This document shows, in pieces, positions 5,874 to 47,000 of a DNA stretch of 64,000 bases. The stretch is from Escherichia phage ime09. Numbering within the stretch: position 1 is the first letter of the stretch; each line of letters opens with the position of its first letter. The stretch lies in the sequence record NC_019503.1. One strand, written 5' to 3'. Both the position numbers and the translations under genes were made by a program. The notes below the pieces were generated by a model. The model searched no databases. It was not told where the DNA came from and saw nothing but the letters and a program-made list of their open reading frames with translations.

Positions 5874-7385
5874 ATGACTGACATTAAAGTACATTTTTAT
5901 GATTTTAGTCACGTGAGAATTGATTGTGAAGAAAGTACATTTCATGAACTCCGTGATTTCTTTAGCTTCGAAGCTGATGGGTATCGTTTTAATCCGAAAT
6001 ACAAGTATGGTCACTGGGATGGACGAATCCGTCTATTAGATTATAATCGCCTTCTTCCGTTTGGTTTAGTCGGGCAAATTAAAAAGTTCTGCGATAACTT
6101 TGGCTATAAAGCTTGGATTGACCCGCAAATTAACGAAAAAGAAGAATTATCAAGAAAAGATTTTGATGAATGGCTTTCTAAGTTAGAAATCTATTCAGGA
6201 AATAAAAGAATTGAACCACACTGGTATCAAAAAGATGCAGTGTTCGAAGGATTAGTTAATCGTCGTAGAATTCTTAATCTTCCAACATCCGCAGGTAAAT
6301 CTTTAATTCAAGCTTTGCTTGCACGTTATTATTTGGAAAATTATGAAGGTAAAATTCTTATCATTGTTCCAACAACTGCTTTAACAACTCAGATGGCTGA
6401 TGACTTTGTTGATTATCGTTTATTCAGTCATGCAATGATAAAGAAAATCGGCGGCGGAGCATCAAAAGATGATAAATATAAAAATGATGCACCGGTAATT
6501 GTTGGTACATGGCAAACTGTAGTAAAACAACCAAAAGAATGGTTCTCACAGTTTGGAATGATGATGAATGATGAATGCCATCTTGCCACAGGAAAAAGTA
6601 TTTCATCTATCATATCAGGTTTAAATAACTGCATGTTTAAATTTGGTTTGTCCGGTTCATTGCGTGATGGCAAAGCTAATATCATGCAGTATGTTGGAAT
6701 GTTTGGTGAAATATTTAAGCCAGTAACGACTTCTAAATTAATGGAAGATGGACAAGTAACTGAGTTAAAAATTAATAGTATTTTTCTTCGCTATCCCGAT
6801 GAGTTCACTACTAAATTAAAGGGAAAAACTTACCAAGAAGAAATAAAAATTATTACTGGGCTCAGTAAAAGAAATAAATGGATCGCTAAATTAGCTATTA
6901 AGCTTGCACAAAAAGATGAAAACGCTTTTGTCATGTTTAAACACGTATCACACGGTAAAGCTATTTTCGATTTAATTAAAAATGAATACGATAAAGTTTA
7001 TTACGTATCAGGGGAAGTTGATACCGAAACACGCAACGTAATGAAAACCCTAGCTGAAAACGGTAAAGGAATAATTATAGTAGCTAGTTATGGTGTATTT
7101 TCTACTGGTATTTCAGTTAAAAATCTGCATCACGTTGTTTTAGCACACGGTGTTAAATCTAAAATTATTGTATTGCAAACAATAGGTCGCGTATTACGTA
7201 AGCATGGTTCCAAAACAATCGCAACGGTCTGGGACCTCATTGACGATTGTGGCGTTAAACCAAAATCTGCTAATACGAAAAAGAAATATGTTCATTTGAA
7301 CTATCTTTTAAAACACGGCATTGATCGTATTCAGCGCTACGCAGATGAAAAATTTAATTACGTAATGAAAACAGTTAATTTATAA
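5874..7385 (+). CDS. uvsW: UvsW DNA/RNA helicase (SF2)
   Basis: 503 aa; Walker A-like PTSAGKS, DEAD-box variant DECH, helicase C-terminal motifs. Confidence 0.9.
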   Translation: MTDIKVHFYDFSHVRIDCEESTFHELRDFFSFEADGYRFNPKYKYGHWDGRIRLLDYNRLLPFGLVGQIKKFCDNFGYKAWIDPQINEKEELSRKDFDEWLSKLEIYSGNKRIEPHWYQKDAVFEGLVNRRRILNLPTSAGKSLIQALLARYYLENYEGKILIIVPTTALTTQMADDFVDYRLFSHAMIKKIGGGASKDDKYKNDAPVIVGTWQTVVKQPKEWFSQFGMMMNDECHLATGKSISSIISGLNNCMFKFGLSGSLRDGKANIMQYVGMFGEIFKPVTTSKLMEDGQVTELKINSIFLRYPDEFTTKLKGKTYQEEIKIITGLSKRNKWIAKLAIKLAQKDENAFVMFKHVSHGKAIFDLIKNEYDKVYYVSGEVDTETRNVMKTLAENGKGIIIVASYGVFSTGISVKNLHHVVLAHGVKSKIIVLQTIGRVLRKHGSKTIATVWDLIDDCGVKPKSANTKKKYVHLNYLLKHGIDRIQRYADEKFNYVMKTVNL

Positions 7386-7410
7386 GGGCTTCGGCCCTTT
7401 GGAGAAAAAG

Positions 7411-23251: not shown

Positions 23252-23712
23252 AGAGAGTCTCTTAATAGGTTTAACACATCAATAAATTCAGCTTCGGTTA
23301 GTATTGTATCATCTTTTGTTAGACCACTAGCCATGCTGTGCTTCAAAACTTTTCCTTTCGAGGCTTGTAATGCATCGCGAAAGCCCCTGTTTTGGAACGC
23401 TGCTTCAAAATATGCATTTGTGTATAATTCTTTCCACGCTGGAGAGTATCTTGAAAACGGAACTCCAAGCCAGAAGAGGGTCCCACGGTCCTGAGCTCTA
23501 GCATAAGCTCGTCCAGCTTGTTGGGCAGCAAGCCCGGATAACCCAAATATACGACGTTGCTGTTCAACATTTTTCACCTTACACCCTTGGAGGAATCCTT
23601 CGAGACCTCCAAATTGGATACCATCCATAACAAAAGGCCATTGGGCGAAATTACTTAGTGCGCATGATGGCCATCTAAAATTGCTTCTTATCTCTAACTC
23701 AGACATTTTCAA
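23248..23712 (-). CDS. Hypothetical protein (30.3 position)
   Basis: 154-aa ORF in tight array. Confidence 0.6.
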   Translation of the reverse strand: MKMSELEIRSNFRWPSCALSNFAQWPFVMDGIQFGGLEGFLQGCKVKNVEQQRRIFGLSGLAAQQAGRAYARAQDRGTLFWLGVPFSRYSPAWKELYTNAYFEAAFQNRGFRDALQASKGKVLKHSMASGLTKDDTILTEAEFIDVLNLLRDSL

Positions 23713-28862: not shown

Positions 28863-29057
28863 TCACATAATTTTCTTCAAGCCAATTAATAACATCCAAC
28901 GCATTATCAAAAGTGAACCATCTACTTTGTCTTCTGTTTCATAATCAAGAACATCTAAGCCTACTCTTCCATCAACAATAGGCCATAAACAAAATAGATA
29001 TTTCTTTTCTTTTTCAATTTTATCACAAAGTCGATAAATCTTTTCTATGTTATTCAT
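28863..29057 (-). CDS. Hypothetical protein
   Basis: 64-aa ORF. Confidence 0.45.
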   Translation of the reverse strand: MNNIEKIYRLCDKIEKEKKYLFCLWPIVDGRVGLDVLDYETEDKVDGSLLIMRWMLLIGLKKIM

Positions 29058-40660: not shown

Positions 40661-40700
40661 GATAGTTGTATAGTACCATAAAGCTTTATGCTTGTAAACC
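40661..40700 (-). promoter_or_regulatory. T4-type early promoter (GTTTAC -35; TACTATACA -10 region), cassette copy 1
   Basis: Shares a conserved block with 57895-57937 and 61925-61965, including the upstream A/T-rich UP-like tract. Confidence 0.55.
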
Positions 40701-40724
40701 GTTTTGTGAAAAAATTTTTGAAAT

Positions 40725-40752
40725 AAAAAAGGGGACCTCTAGGGTCCCCAAT
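40725..40752 (-). terminator. Terminator downstream of gene 32
   Basis: ggggacc-tctag-ggtcccc; on the minus strand it is followed by ttttttatttc. Confidence 0.7.
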
Positions 40753-40771
40753 TAATTAGTAATATAATTTA

Positions 40772-41680
40772 TTAAAGGTCATTCAAAAGGTCATCCAGGT
40801 CCGTGTCATCAGCACTAGATGAACTGCCAGAGCTTGAGCTCATAAAATCATCTTCAGTTTTTGTATTGAAGTCATCAACATTGAATGCATCCAAATCATC
40901 AGCAACTTTGTCAGCTTTCTTAGCGGCAGTTGCTGCGGCACCACCCATAGCAGCAGTTCCCATAACTTGACTGAACTTAGTGCTCAGTTCTTCAAACGAT
41001 TTGAATTTATCTTTAGAAGTCATTTCAGAAAGATCAACCATTTGTTCGAACAGTTCTTTCTGGAAAGATTCATCATCAATGTTTGGAATCGCAGATTGAT
41101 TCAGGAATTTAGATTCGTCGTAGTTACTAAAACCAGAAACTTGTTTAACTTTCAGTACAAAGTTAGCACCTTCCCACGGACAAGTTACATCAACCGGAGT
41201 TTCACCCATTTCAACATCAACTGCAATCATTGCATTGATTTTATCCCAGATTTTCTTACCGAAACGGTATTTAAATACTTTACCTTCATTTTCTGGAGCA
41301 GCTGGGTCTTTTACTACAAGAATGTTAGCCCAGTAAGAAGTTTTACGTTTAACAAGACCGTACTCTTTATTGTCAGTGTTGTACAAATCATTTTTACTGA
41401 TGTACTGACATACTGGACAAGAATCGTAATCACCGTGGGTAGATGAACAGTTTTCAATATACCATTTACCATTTTTCTTGAAACCGTGATTTACAAGAAT
41501 TGCGAATGGTGCTTGTTCATCATTTTTAGACGGAAGAAAACGAATTACTGCTTGACCGTTACCCGCATTGTCGAGTTTCAGTTTCCACTCGCCTTTATCT
41601 TCAGAAGAAAAACCACCTTTATTTCCAGCCAGTTTAGCCATTTGTGCAGCGAGTTCAGCAGTAGATTTACGTTTAAACAT
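40772..41680 (-). CDS. 32: Single-stranded DNA-binding protein gp32
   Basis: 302 aa; zinc-binding H-x-C-x-C-x-C region and acidic Ser/Asp-rich C-terminal tail. Confidence 0.95.
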
Positions 41681-41779: not shown

Positions 41780-42433
41780 TTAATACTTACAAGATTTCAC
41801 AGTTTCAATAAAAATACTTTTAGCTTTCTGCGAATCAATATTTAAAATTTTTCTATAAGCCTTTAACTTTATAGAATAATTATTCCAGACTAAATTATCA
41901 GTCTGTTCATCATGTTTATCGATTATATTTAAAAACGAATCAAGCAAGATAAACGTCTCAAACGAAATTATATTCGATTGAAGTAGTTTAAAAATATAAC
42001 TCGATTGAACTTTTGGATTATACTCAAAGATTTCTTTAAAAGCAGAAACTTCAACTTTTTTACTAAAATAATAAATGTTGCGAATATCTTCTTCAAACTT
42101 AAATTTAATTTGCTTTAAGCGTCCGATATATTCACGATAAAACACAAGTGCATCAGCGTCAGAGATGTCACCAATCCAAGCATCTTGGTTAGCAACCAGA
42201 TTGCTTATAAAGATTAAAGCAAGTTCCTTTAATTTATATTTTTCTGATAACTTCTGGAAAAAATACTTATCCCTTCGCTTTTGATAAGCGGCATCAGACA
42301 CCCGCATGCACCAATTATACTTAATTACATCATACTTTCCATTCATATGTTGTTTTATCATTAAGTATAATTTATAAACTGATTTACCATCAATGTATCT
42401 TTCACCACCAGCAGGCATGCGGAGTTTAATCAT
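41780..42433 (-). CDS. 59: Helicase loader gp59
   Basis: 217 aa as in T4; synteny next to 32. Confidence 0.85.
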   Translation of the reverse strand: MIKLRMPAGGERYIDGKSVYKLYLMIKQHMNGKYDVIKYNWCMRVSDAAYQKRRDKYFFQKLSEKYKLKELALIFISNLVANQDAWIGDISDADALVFYREYIGRLKQIKFKFEEDIRNIYYFSKKVEVSAFKEIFEYNPKVQSSYIFKLLQSNIISFETFILLDSFLNIIDKHDEQTDNLVWNNYSIKLKAYRKILNIDSQKAKSIFIETVKSCKY

Positions 42434-42777
42434 AGTAGAAAATCTAATGTATTAGTTTTTTCACAACGAACAACAGAAGGACGTAAAAGATTTTCGTCGA
42501 TAGCTTCTGACTGAATTTTTTCAATTATACCCGAAGGAATAAATTTAGCAAATTGAGTTTCAGGAATAGAATTTTCTTCTAAGAATGCTGTTGTAGCTTC
42601 AAGATAACTCATTCCAAACTCTTCTACCATTTTTTCAATAATAAATCCATTTTCTTGGCGATCGAGAAGCTTTGCAATTTCATCTTTTTCTTTCTTAATT
42701 GAAAGTTCTTTTTCTGAAAGACCGGTCTCATCGACCGGACGAATATCATTTAGAGAAAACTGTGTCATAAAGTTCAA
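42430..42777 (-). CDS. 33: Late transcription co-activator gp33
   Basis: 115-aa acidic protein in the conserved position. Confidence 0.7.
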   Translation of the reverse strand: MNFMTQFSLNDIRPVDETGLSEKELSIKKEKDEIAKLLDRQENGFIIEKMVEEFGMSYLEATTAFLEENSIPETQFAKFIPSGIIEKIQSEAIDENLLRPSVVRCEKTNTLDFLL

Positions 42778-43015
42778 CTACCTCTTCAGTTTCAGCTTCA
42801 AACACATCACGGTTATCTTTATGATACAAAGCTAACAGACGATTAAACATCTTACCATCAACGCCAAGTTCATCTTTGGCACGAATTCGAATATCTTTAA
42901 TCAATTCATTATAACCAGAAATTTTCAGTTTATGATCAGATGCTTCTTTAATAAATTTAGCCAAGTCTTCGCCATGAATAGCTTCATCAAATTCAACCAT
43001 TTCTTTTTTAGCCAT
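42746..43015 (-). CDS. dsbA: dsDNA-binding protein DsbA
   Basis: 89 aa as in T4; synteny. Confidence 0.7.
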   Translation of the reverse strand: MAKKEMVEFDEAIHGEDLAKFIKEASDHKLKISGYNELIKDIRIRAKDELGVDGKMFNRLLALYHKDNRDVFEAETEEVVELYDTVFSK

Positions 43016-43023
43016 TATTCACC

Positions 43024-43940
43024 TCAAAATTCATTAATGCTATTAGTTAATTTAGAAAGACCCGCTTTTACAAAATATGAATAAATTTTGCCACGCGGTG
43101 GTAATTTATATGAATTATAGTAATTCACAATGTTTGAAGCAATATTATCAGGAATATAATCAAAATCAATTAGAACTAAATTTTCTTTATATCGATTATA
43201 TTCAGATTCAGTGAGAAGCACCTTAGCTTGCTCACGGTCATTAGCAATAGCTTCAACAATAGATGTTTTCATTGAAGGAGTTCGTTCACCTTCAACTCTA
43301 GTAAACCAAAAGTCAGACCGTACTTTAACTGAAGCAACGTTATCCTTTTTGTCACCTTTAAGGATTTTAGTCATACAGTCAATTTCAGCAGAACCGCTTT
43401 TAATTTTAACCCATTTCTTGTGCATCGGTGACCATTGCTTAACATTTGGGTATTTGTGAAGTTGAGTAAAGTCACCATCAGATGAAATGATTAAAATCTT
43501 ATGTCCTTCTAAAGAGAACTTTTTAACAAGAACAGCAATATGGTCATCTGCTTCATACTTATCAATATCCATAACAATGTATGGCATATAAGCTTTCAAT
43601 TCATCTATGACTTTATGACTGGATTCAAAATAACCTTCCCAGTCCCAAGTAGATTCTTCTCGTGCTTTTCCACGGTTTTTCTTATAATAATAAGCGAAAT
43701 CACGACGCCAGTATCCAGATTTCGCATTATCAATACACAGTACAATTTTAGTGTATCCAAGAGCTTTTGCTTTTTTGACATTAAACTTAATTGAGTTCAA
43801 TATCAAATGACGAACCATTGATAAATTAATTTTTCTTTATCTGGAAAGTTTACCAAAGCAGTTGAAAGAGCAATTTGACTAAAGTCAATTAAGCAGATTC
43901 CTTCTTTGTAATCTTCATCCAGCATCATTTCTAAATCCAT
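43024..43940 (-). pseudogene. rnh: RNase H / 5'-3' flap exonuclease gene with an apparent 1-nt frameshift in an A5 tract
   Basis: Intact 264-codon segment 43024..43818 (MVRHL...) plus an upstream out-of-frame ORF from the ATG at 43940 (MDLEMMLDEDYKEGICLIDFSQIALSTALVNFPDKEK), which has its own SD and early promoter; frames differ by one nucleotide at the T5 run 43830-43834 (plus strand). Confidence 0.7.
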
Positions 43941-43969
43941 ATGAACCTCGTTCAATTAGTGAGATTTCT

Positions 43970-44000
43970 ATTATATACCATCCGAATCTTAAAGTAAACA
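43970..44000 (-). promoter_or_regulatory. Early promoter for rnh (GTTTAC -35, TATATAAT -10)
   Basis: Minus-strand GTTTAC at 43994-43999 and TATATAAT about 16 nt downstream; divergent from the gene 34 late promoter. Confidence 0.55.
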
Positions 44001-44002
44001 AG

Positions 44003-44010
44003 TATAAATA
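44003..44010 (+). promoter_or_regulatory. Late promoter TATAAATA for gene 34
   Basis: Exact TATAAATA about 35 nt upstream of the gene 34 ATG. Confidence 0.6.
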
Positions 44011-44044
44011 CTTATTATTGAAAACACAATAGGAGCCCGGGAGA

Positions 44045-47000
44045 ATGGCCGAGATTAAAAGAAAGTTCAGAGCAGAAGATGGTCTGGACGCAGGTGGCGA
44101 TAAAATAATCAACGTAGCTTTAGCTGATCGTGCCGTAGGAACTGACGGTGTTAACGTTGATTACCTAATTCAAGAAAACACAGTTCAACAATACGATCCA
44201 ACTCGTGGATATTTAAAAGATTTTGTAATCATTTATGATAACCGCTTTTGGGCTGCTATAAATGATATTCCAAAACCGGCAGGAGCTTTTAATAGCGGAC
44301 GCTGGAGAGCATTACGTACCGATGCTAACTGGATTACAGTCTCATCTGGTTCATATCAATTAAAATCTGGTGAAGCTATTTCGGTTAACACTGCAGCTGG
44401 TAATGATATTACATTTACTTTACCATCTACTCCAATTGACGGTGATACTATCGTTCTCCAAGACATTGGAGGAAAACCTGGAGTTAACCAAGTTTTAATT
44501 GTAGCTCCAGTGCAAAGTATTGTAAACTTCAGAGGCGAGCAAGTACGTTCAGTACTAATGACTCATCCAAAGTCACAGTTAGTTTTAATTTTTAGTAATC
44601 GTCTGTGGCAAATGTATGTAGCTGATTATAGTAGAGAAGCTGTAGTTGTAACACCAGCGAATACTTATCAAGCACAATCCAACGATTTTATCGTACGTAG
44701 ATTTACTTCTGCTGCACCGATAAATATTAAACTTCCGAGATTTGCTAATCACGGCGATATTATTAATTTCGTCGATTTGGATAAATTAAACCCTCTTTAT
44801 CATACAATTGTTACTACATATGATGAAACGACATCAGTGCAAGAAGATGGAACTCATTCCATTGAAGGCCGTACATCGATTGACGGTTTCTTGATGTATG
44901 ATGATAATGAGAAATTATGGAGATTATTTGACGGGGACAGTAAAGCACGTTTACGTATCATAACAACTAATTCAAACATTCGTCCAAATGAAGAAGTTAT
45001 GGTATTTGGTGCGAATAACGGAACAACTCAAACGATTGAGCTTCAGCTTCCAACTAATATTTCTGTTGGTGATACTGTTAAAATTTCCATGAATTACATG
45101 AGAAAAGGACAAACAGTTAAAATCAAAGCTGCCGGTGAAGATAAAATTGCTTCTTCAGTTCAATTGCTGCAATTCCCAAAACGTTCAGAGTATCCACCTG
45201 AAGCTGAATGGGTGACTGTTCAAGAATTAGTTTTTAACGGTGAAACTAATTATGTTCCAGTTTTACAACTTGCTTATATAGAAGATTCTGACGGAAAATA
45301 CTGGGTTGTACAACAAAACGTTCCAACCGTAGAAAGAGTTGATTCTTTAAACGATTCTACTAGAGCAAGATTAGGCGTAATTGCTTTAGCTACACAAGCG
45401 CAAGCTAATGTCGATTTAGAAAATTCTCCACAAAAAGAATTAGCAATTACTCCAGAAACATTAGCTAACCGTACTGCTACAGAAACTCGTAGAGGTATCG
45501 CAAGAATAGCAACCACTGCTCAAGTGAATCAGAACACCACATTCTCTTTTGCTGATGATATTATCATTACACCTAAAAAGCTGAATGAAAGAACTGCTAC
45601 AGAAACTCGTAGAGGTGTTGCTGAAATTGCTACGCAACAGGAAACTAATGCAGGTACTGATGATACTACAATCATCACTCCTAAAAAGCTTCAAGCTCGA
45701 CAAGGTTCTGAATCATTATCTGGTATTGTAACCTTTGTATCTACTGCAGGAGCTACTCCAGCTTCTAGTCGTGAATTAAATGGTACAAACGTTTATAATA
45801 AAAACACTAATAATTTAGTTGTTTCGCCTAAAGCTCTGGATCAGTATAAAGCTACTCCAACACAACAAGGTGCAGTAATTTTAGCAGTTGAAAGTGAAGT
45901 AATTGCTGGACAGAGCCAAGAAGGATGGGCAAATGCGGTTGTAACGCCAGAAACGTTACATAAAAAGACATCAACTGATGGAAGAATTGGTTTAATTGAA
46001 ATTGCTACGCAAAGTGAAGTTAATACAGGAACTGATTATACTCGTGCAGTCACTCCTAAAACTTTAAATGACCGTAAAGCAACTGAAAGTTTAAGTGGTA
46101 TAGCTGAAATTGCTACACAAGTTGAATTCGACGCAGGCGTCGACGATACTCGTATCTCTACACCATTAAAAATTAAAACTAGATTTGATAGTACTGATCG
46201 TACTTCTGTTGTTGCTCTATCTGGATTAGTTGAATCAGGAACTCTCTGGGACCATTATACCCTTAATATTCTTGAAGCAAATGAGACACAGCGTGGTACA
46301 CTTCGTGTAGCTACACAGGTTGAAGCTGCTGCAGGAACATTAGATAATGTTTTAATAACTCCTAAAAAGCTTTTAGGTACTAAATCTACTGAAGCACAGG
46401 AAGGCGTTATTAAAGTTGCAACTCAGTCTGAAACTGTGACTGGAACGTCAGCAAATACTGCTGTATCTCCAAAAAATTTAAAATGGATTGTGCAGAGTGA
46501 ACCTACTTGGGCAGCTACTACTGCGATAAGAGGCTTTGTTAAAACTTCATCCGGTTCAATTACATTCGTTGGTAATGATACAGTTGGTTCAACACAGTCG
46601 TTAGAATTATACGAGAAAAATAGCTATGCAGTATCACCATATGAATTAAACCGTGTATTAGCAAATTATTTGCCATTAAAAGCAAAAGCTGCTGATACAA
46701 ATTTATTGGATGGTCTAGATTCATCTCAGTTCATTCGTAGGGATATTGCACAGACAGTTAATGGTTCACTAACCTTAACCCAACAAACGAATCTGAGTGC
46801 CCCTCTTGTATCATCTAGTACTGCTACGTTTGGTGGATCAGTTTCGGCAAACAGCACATTAACTATTTCTAATACTGGAACGGCAACTCGTCTGATTTTT
46901 GAGAAAGGACCTCAAACTGGAACTAACCCAGTACAGACGATGACTATCAGAGTTTGGGGAAATCAGTACGGTGGCGGTTCAGATACAACACGTTCTACTG

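What the first reader, a model, noticed from the sequence alone, without database searches (positions are those of the whole stretch)
43819..43940. rnh (RNase H / flap endonuclease) split by a 1-nt frameshift at an A5 homopolymer
A 41-codon ORF with a proper early promoter, SD and ATG at 43940 encodes a typical 5'-nuclease N-terminus with an acidic residue at position 19 (CLIDFSQ), then stops. The remaining 264 codons continue in the -1 frame from 43818. One additional A in the run (plus-strand T5 at 43830-43834) would fuse them into a single 305-aa product reading PDKEKINLSMVRHL. The likeliest explanations are a homopolymer sequencing error, a genuine inactivating mutation (rnh is dispensable in T4), or low-level -1 slippage on the A-run.
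Basis: partly seen in the sequence, partly recalled or inferred. Interest (0 to 1): 0.6.

Follow-up and report, generated by a model that had tools for sequence, protein, structure and literature searches.

The report
Likely sequencing error splitting phage rnh
The RNase H gene of this T4-like phage (Escherichia phage ime09) is broken by one missing A in a run of six, but the genome was read on an Ion Torrent machine that routinely under-counts such runs, so the break is most likely a sequencing error rather than biology.

Summary
One extra A in the A5 run (43834-43830) restores a 305-aa protein that is 304/305 identical to T4 RNase H (PDB 1TFR).

The window is Escherichia phage ime09 (NC_019503). 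Its GenBank record already annotates the two pieces as separate CDSs. The genome was sequenced on an Ion Torrent PGM, which systematically under-calls long A/T homopolymers.

None of 460 related phage records has A5; all have A6. IMG/VR, metagenome and genome collections have no A5 copy either. The repaired gene differs from relatives almost only by synonymous changes (10:0, 11:0, 20:0), so the break is at most very recent.

The only other A5 carriers are four short-read assemblies (ERR4622920-23) of a different genotype. In these, 37% of six-base A/T runs are shortened, including runs in genes 33, 34 and 59.

A second private 1-nt deletion breaks cd.4 in the same window.

Verdict: homopolymer under-call, about 0.85; genuine recent null mutation (rnh-minus T4 is viable), about 0.12; functional slippage, about 0.02. 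Low interest.

The parts
43970..43998 (-). Promoter-like site upstream of rnh: TTTACT, 17-nt spacer, TATAAT
   Evidence: 10 of 12 consensus matches. This is a consensus match only. Sequence read.
43946..43949 (-). Shine-Dalgarno GAGG, 5 nt before the rnh ATG
   Evidence: Read directly.
43803..43940 (-). rnh 5' piece (ORF1): 45 codons plus TGA. Residues 1-37 are wild type, including the active-site residue D19, followed by the 8 out-of-frame residues LIYQWFVI.
   Evidence: The exact product is annotated as AEK12498.1 / YP_007004619.1 'RNaseH ribonuclease [Escherichia phage ime09]'.
43830..43834 (-). A5 run (T5 on the plus strand) where relatives have A6. This is the site of the 1-nt deficit.
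   Evidence: An A5 41-mer hits 0 phage records; the A6 42-mer hits 460.
43024..43818 (-). rnh 3' piece (ORF2): 264 codons starting at the internal Met42 codon, in the -1 frame relative to ORF1. No Shine-Dalgarno sequence upstream.
   Evidence: Pfam PF02739 and PF09293 hit this product. It is annotated as AEK12497.1 'phage ribonuclease H [Escherichia phage ime09]'.
43024..43940 (-). Whole rnh locus: 917 nt as given, 918 nt and 305 codons with A6. It lies between dsbA and gene 34 as in T4.
28863..29057 (-). cd.4 carrying a second private 1-nt deletion (AA to A at 28914). This replaces the last 18 residues. It has the same artefact signature as rnh.
   Evidence: The 64-aa product is found only in ime09, as AEK12472.1.

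Best explanation
The split is most likely an Ion Torrent homopolymer under-call fixed in the consensus of the ime09 genome record. On this reading the phage's real rnh has A6 and encodes an ordinary, intact 305-aa T4-type RNase H (a FEN-1-family 5' nuclease that removes Okazaki-fragment primers). Shown: the lesion, the identity of the source record, the sequencing platform, the absence of A5 from relatives, and purifying selection on the gene. Inferred: that the consensus base-call is wrong. No reads were available to confirm this.
For: (1) Source. The 45-aa and 264-aa products are exact ime09 CDSs. The window's gp37, gp34 and the frameshifted cd.4 each occur only in ime09. NC_019503 is absent from the searchable phage collection. 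(2) Platform. IME09 (NC_019503, 166,499 bp) was sequenced on an Ion Torrent PGM (PMC3896407). The PGM under-calls long homopolymers. Deletions dominate as run length rises, and A and T flows are the most error-prone. It also makes high-frequency single-base indels at 2-3-mers (PMC3623719). (3) The lesion is a 1-nt deletion in an A6 run. (4) It is private. No phage record has A5 against 460 with A6. There are no A5 copies in IMG/VR, metagenome or genome contigs, against 5 and 5 A6 copies in the two collections also scanned for A6. (5) Selection. The repaired gene against CrRp10 shows 10 synonymous and 0 non-synonymous changes; ESh26 11:0; the Logan genotype 20:0; T4 21:2; KRT47 27:2. (6) The only other A5 carriers, Logan assemblies of ERR4622920-23, are a different genotype. 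All 12 of their extra 1-nt deletions lie in A/T runs, 11 of them 4-6 bases long, and 9 hit genes 33, 34 and 59. Seven of 19 six-base runs are shortened, against 0 of 8 in each GenBank relative. So A5 appears only in homopolymer-error-prone data. (7) A second private 1-nt deletion breaks cd.4 in the same window. No other of about 150 conserved genes is broken.
Against: The window is not riddled with errors. It has 3 private single-base indels in 44 kb against 0-2 in control genomes, and all essential genes are intact. Both broken genes are dispensable, which is also what real mutations would show, although by my rough estimate random errors would give this pattern about 35% of the time. Read depth was high: about 1.2 million reads in one dataset. 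A wrong consensus therefore needs a systematic, site-specific under-call. A5 is seen in 4 of 4 Logan runs, whereas other six-base runs there are shortened only about 37% of the time. That site is therefore either a systematic error hotspot or a real allele in that genotype. No reads were inspected.
Confidence: 0.85

Rival explanations
1. A genuine, very recent A6-to-A5 replication-slippage mutation that inactivates rnh in the ime09 isolate. The 45-aa peptide carries D19 and the clamp-binding N-terminus. Any ORF2 product made by re-initiation at Met42 would lack D19 and be catalytically dead. The phage would survive because host Pol I 5' nuclease substitutes.
For: rnh-minus T4 is viable because E. 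coli Pol I can substitute, and mutating D19 eliminates nuclease activity (PMC3012046). Both frame-broken genes in the window (rnh, cd.4) are non-essential, and no essential gene is broken. The window's overall private-indel count is close to that of control genomes. The same A5 is present in all four ERR4622920-23 assemblies. From general knowledge, A6 runs are classic T4 frameshift hotspots.
Against: None of 460 relatives has it. The gene shows purely synonymous divergence from its closest relatives. The platform is known to produce exactly this error. The only other A5 data set demonstrably under-calls A/T runs in genes 33, 34 and 59. If A5 were real, there would be no reason for it to appear only in error-prone data.
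Confidence: 0.12
2. A5 is genuine, and full-length RNase H is still made by -1 slippage: P-site tRNA-Lys shifting on A-AAA-A, or RNA polymerase stuttering on the run. That would be a recoding or attenuation device, because a -1 shift reproduces the wild-type sequence ...EKINLSM... exactly.
For: A -1 shift at the AAA Lys codon restores the exact wild-type protein (sequence logic). Both halves stay under purifying selection in two diverged A5-bearing genotypes, 20 synonymous to 0 non-synonymous changes. A stable 14-bp hairpin lies downstream; the region's folding z-score is -3.6.
Against: There is no X XXY YYZ heptamer in the 0 frame (GAA AAA UUA). The hairpin starts 22 nt after the run, not 5-9 nt, and sits in coding sequence that is near-identical in the A6 relatives, so it did not evolve for shifting. 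The shift is not conserved: 0 of 460 relatives. From general knowledge, a run of five is too short for appreciable transcriptional slippage. The purifying-selection signal is explained more simply if the true sequence is A6.
Confidence: 0.02

Closest known systems
Bacteriophage T4 RNase H (rnh; PDB 1TFR, 2IHN), a FEN-1/RAD2-family 5' nuclease
   Same: With one A restored, the product is 305 aa and 304/305 identical (T60A). It has the same Pfam domains, the same position between dsbA and gene 34, and the same promoter and Shine-Dalgarno layout.
   Different: As deposited, the reading frame breaks after codon 37. That separates D19 and the clamp-binding N-terminus from the rest of the enzyme.
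Ion Torrent PGM homopolymer under-call and high-frequency indel errors (Bragg et al. 2013, PMC3623719)
   Same: A single-base deletion in a six-base A/T run, in a genome sequenced only on the PGM. The second private deletion, at a 2-mer in cd.4, matches the high-frequency indel class.
   Different: There is no read-level or flow-level confirmation here. The consensus came from deep coverage, so the error would have to be systematic at this site.
T4 rnh null mutants (Hobbs and Nossal 1996, as cited in PMC3012046)
   Same: If A5 is genuine, this would be a natural rnh-minus phage, viable on hosts with functional Pol I.
   Different: Those are engineered laboratory mutants. No natural isolate among the 460 records carries this lesion.

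Membership tests
T4-type RNase H / FEN-1 5' nuclease | Full-length sequence similarity to the solved T4 enzyme | tested here: met
   The repaired product is 304/305 identical to 1TFR, E = 1.6e-205. The split pieces align to residues 1-38 and 37-305.
T4-type RNase H / FEN-1 5' nuclease | 5_3_exonuc_N (PF02739) and RNaseH_C (PF09293) domains | tested here: met
   Precomputed Pfam hits on the 264-aa product.
T4-type RNase H / FEN-1 5' nuclease | All metal-binding carboxylates (D19, D71, D132, D155, D157, D200) on one polypeptide | tested here: not met
In the sequence as given, D19 is on the 45-aa ORF and the others are on the 264-aa ORF.
T4-type RNase H / FEN-1 5' nuclease | Conserved genomic position (33, dsbA, rnh, divergent gene 34) | tested here: met
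Programmed -1 ribosomal frameshift site | X XXY YYZ slippery heptamer in the 0 frame | tested here: not met
   The 0-frame codons are GAA AAA UUA. Only a single-tRNA shift on A-AAA-A is possible.
Programmed -1 ribosomal frameshift site | Stimulatory structure 5-9 nt downstream, or an upstream SD-like element | tested here: not met
   The nearest stable hairpin (43807-43774) begins 22 nt after the run.
Programmed -1 ribosomal frameshift site | Conservation of the frameshift among relatives | tested here: not met
   0 of 460 related records carry A5. The only other carriers are error-prone assemblies.
Flow-sequencing homopolymer under-call artefact | The record was produced on a flow-based platform | tested here: met
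   The window is ime09. IME09 was sequenced on Ion Torrent PGM (PMC3896407).
Flow-sequencing homopolymer under-call artefact | A one-base deletion in a long A/T homopolymer, private to the record, in an otherwise constrained gene | tested here: met
Flow-sequencing homopolymer under-call artefact | Reads or flow values show mixed or shifted run-length calls at the site, or an orthogonal method gives A6 | not testable with these tools
   No raw reads for ime09 are accessible here.

The most novel reading that the evidence does not exclude
A5 is genuine in two diverged Tequatrovirus lineages (ime09 and the ERR4622920-23 genotype). Both halves of rnh stay under purifying selection because full-length RNase H is still made, at a reduced level, by -1 slippage of tRNA-Lys on A-AAA-A. 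That would be a natural attenuation of a replication nuclease by recoding.
Probability: 0.02. Interest if true: 0.5.

Novelty: not a real feature. Interest (0 to 1): 0.06.

Why it matters
It matters mainly as curation. The RefSeq record for the exemplar of the species Tequatrovirus ime09 carries rnh as two CDSs (YP_007004619.1 and YP_007004618.1) and a frameshifted cd.4 (YP_007004593.1). These most likely reflect Ion Torrent consensus errors. They have already propagated into protein databases as separate UniRef100 entries for the 45-aa rnh fragment and the frameshifted cd.4 (UniRef100_G1FHG5 and UniRef100_G1FHD9). If the frameshift were genuine, ime09 would be a natural rnh-minus T4-like phage dependent on host Pol I. 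That would be of modest interest, because engineered rnh-minus T4 is already characterised.

Tried and rejected
(1) I searched for the A5 allele in IMG/VR, metagenome and genome contig collections and found none. (2) I looked for the exact split products elsewhere. The four Logan assemblies that carry them first looked like independent corroboration, but I set them aside. They are a different genotype, with all extra deletions in A/T runs (11 of 12 in runs of 4-6 bases), 9 of 12 in genes 33, 34 and 59, and 37% of six-base runs shortened. (3) I tested whether the window is globally error-ridden. It is not: only rnh and cd.4 are broken among about 150 conserved genes, and private indel counts are close to those of control genomes. 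The argument therefore rests on the platform and on the lesion being private, not on a high error density. (4) Apparent breaks in uvsW and in CrRp10 gp32 turned out to be peculiarities of the reference records, not of the window. (5) I tried to find an independent assembly of the ime09 genotype reaching rnh through its exact gp38. The contigs were only 1.3 and 2.8 kb and did not reach it. (6) A literature search for ERR4622920 found nothing. Hobbs and Nossal 1996 (PMC178574) is not held. The CrRp10 paper compares genomes with Ime09 but does not mention rnh. (7) I considered the downstream hairpin as a frameshift stimulator and rejected it on spacing and because its sequence is near-identical in the A6 relatives.

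Full report
**Observation.** On the minus strand, an ATG at 43940 opens a 45-codon ORF that ends at TGA 43805-43803. The ATG is preceded by GAGG at 43949-43946. Upstream is a sigma-70-like promoter match (TTTACT, 17-nt spacer, TATAAT) at 43998-43970.

A second ORF of 264 codons starts at ATG 43818, in the -1 frame, and ends at 43024. The two overlap by 16 nt.

The run GAAAAAT holds five A residues at 43834-43830. Adding one A gives a 918-nt ORF whose 305-aa product reads ...PDKEKINLSMVRHL.... That product is 304/305 identical to T4 RNase H (PDB 1TFR, E = 1.6e-205).

The one slip is that the first ORF is 45 codons (37 wild-type plus 8 out-of-frame), not 41.

**What the window is.** The window is a Tequatrovirus segment running from gene 23 to rIIB. 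The closest searchable records are only about 96% identical over 24 kb.

Exact-sequence look-ups identified the source. The 45-aa and 264-aa products are annotated CDSs of Escherichia phage ime09: AEK12498.1 / YP_007004619.1 and AEK12497.1 / YP_007004618.1. The window's gp37, gp34 and a frameshifted 64-aa cd.4 each occur in that genome and no other. NC_019503 is absent from the searchable phage collection.

The split is therefore already present, and annotated as two genes, in a public record dating from 2011.

**How the record was made.** PMC3896407 states that IME09 (NC_019503, 166,499 bp) was sequenced on an Ion Torrent PGM and assembled from those reads.

PMC3623719 characterises PGM errors:
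- Long homopolymers are under-called.
- Deletions become the dominant error as run length rises.
- A and T flows are the most error-prone.
- A second class of high-frequency single-base indels sits mostly at 2-3-mers.

**Is the lesion shared?** I used a 41-base A5 query built so that every megablast seed must span the run. It hits no phage record. The matching 42-base A6 query hits 460 records.

An exact A5 28-mer is absent from IMG/VR, metagenome and genome contigs. The A6 form occurs 5 times in each of the two collections also scanned for it.

Against CrRp10, the 9.1 kb around rnh is 97.7% identical with exactly one gap, and that gap is this one.

**Selection.** The table counts synonymous and non-synonymous differences between the repaired rnh and each relative.

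| Relative | Synonymous | Non-synonymous |
|---|---|---|
| CrRp10 | 10 | 0 |
| ESh26 | 11 | 0 |
| T4 | 21 | 2 |
| KRT47 | 27 | 2 |
| Logan genotype | 20 | 0 |

The gene has therefore been maintained as a single 305-codon frame up to the present tip. The break is either very recent or not real. It is not an old split gene.

**The other A5 carriers.** Four Logan assemblies (ERR4622920-23) encode the same 45-aa ORF. They all share one set of substitutions that makes them 97-98% identical to the window, so they are a different phage.

They differ from one another by 12 extra single-base deletions. All 12 lie in A/T runs, 11 of them 4-6 bases long, and 9 hit genes 33, 34 and 59. Seven of the 19 six-base runs they cover are shortened, against 0 of 8 in each of four GenBank relatives.

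These data are clearly prone to homopolymer errors. Their A5 is therefore weak evidence for a real allele. A5 appears only in error-prone data sets and never in 460 other records, and this is itself an argument for an artefact. One caveat remains: A5 is seen in 4 of 4 runs, more consistently than most other sites, so the site is either a systematic under-call hotspot or real in that genotype.

**Quality of the rest of the window.** I ran 160 annotated T4 and CrRp10 proteins against the window with tblastn. Only two genes are broken in the window itself: rnh and cd.4.

The cd.4 lesion is a loss of one A from an AA at 28914. It is private too: at least seven relatives are identical across 81 bases apart from that one base, and none of 355 shares the deletion.

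A leave-one-out comparison over 44 kb gives the window 3 private single-base indels. The four control genomes have 0-2 each, none of which breaks a gene. The assembly is therefore generally good. A few residual indels fit a PGM-only consensus, but this is not decisive on its own.

**If A5 were real.** rnh-minus T4 is viable because host Pol I 5' nuclease substitutes. D19 is a site-I metal ligand whose mutation abolishes activity. The N-terminal peptide binds the gp45 clamp (PMC3012046).

A re-initiated ORF2 product would therefore be catalytically dead. ORF2's ATG is the conserved internal Met42 codon with no Shine-Dalgarno sequence.

A -1 shift of tRNA-Lys on A-AAA-A would regenerate the exact wild-type protein. 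However:
- There is no X XXY YYZ heptamer.
- The nearest stable hairpin (43807-43774) starts 22 nt downstream.
- That hairpin's sequence is near-identical in the A6 relatives.
- Nothing about the shift is conserved.

**Verdict.** The sequence feature is present as described, but the biology is most probably ordinary: an intact T4-type rnh mis-recorded by a homopolymer under-call (about 0.85). A genuine recent null mutation remains possible (about 0.12). Functional recoding is very unlikely (about 0.02). Resequencing about 100 bp of the ime09 stock would settle it.

Noticed in passing
window 28863-29057 (minus strand), deletion at 28914: cd.4 carries a private 1-nt deletion (TCAACT to TCACT) that replaces its last 18 residues. 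None of 355 related records shares it. The 64-aa product is annotated in ime09 as AEK12472.1. This is probably a second Ion Torrent consensus error.
   Followed up: yes
L014-L017 (Logan assemblies of ERR4622920-23), matching window 42036-46851: A second Tequatrovirus genotype, 97-98% identical to the window, shows the same rnh A5 in all four runs. It also has 12 extra deletions, all in A/T runs and variable between runs, 9 of them in genes 33, 34 and 59. The platform of these runs is unknown. Whether its A5 is real remains open.
   Followed up: partly
window 7383-7409: uvsW ends here and a separate short ORF follows in another frame, whereas T4 RefSeq NC_000866.4 annotates one fused 587-aa uvsW. 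The window has one extra base net relative to T4. From memory, this matches the later correction of T4 into uvsW plus uvsW.1, so the oddity lies in the reference and not in the window.
   Followed up: partly
window 40679-40797, compared with L006 (CrRp10) about 23254-23268: CrRp10 lacks about 106 bases present in the window just downstream of gene 32. Its gp32 is annotated as 392 aa, fused to downstream sequence. The window's gene 32 matches T4's normal length.
   Followed up: no
window 43774-43807 (minus strand): A 14-bp AU-rich hairpin lies inside the rnh coding sequence and spans ORF1's stop codon. The 106-nt region folds with a z-score of -3.6 against shuffles. Its sequence is near-identical in the A6 relatives, and its role, if any, is unknown.
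   Followed up: partly
window 26254 and 25883: There are two further indels private to the window compared with four relatives. One is +1 in a T run (T6 against T5) in the intergenic region next to gene 31. The other is a 21-nt net deletion near rIII.
   Followed up: no
whole window compared with T4 (L007, L013): The T4 mobile-element genes segD, segE, segG, mobE and nrdB.1 have no counterpart in the window. The td and nrdB regions align without the T4 intron segments. Gene 38 has no similarity to T4 gp38 and instead matches the receptor-recognising gp38 of ime09 and relatives (264 aa).
   Followed up: no
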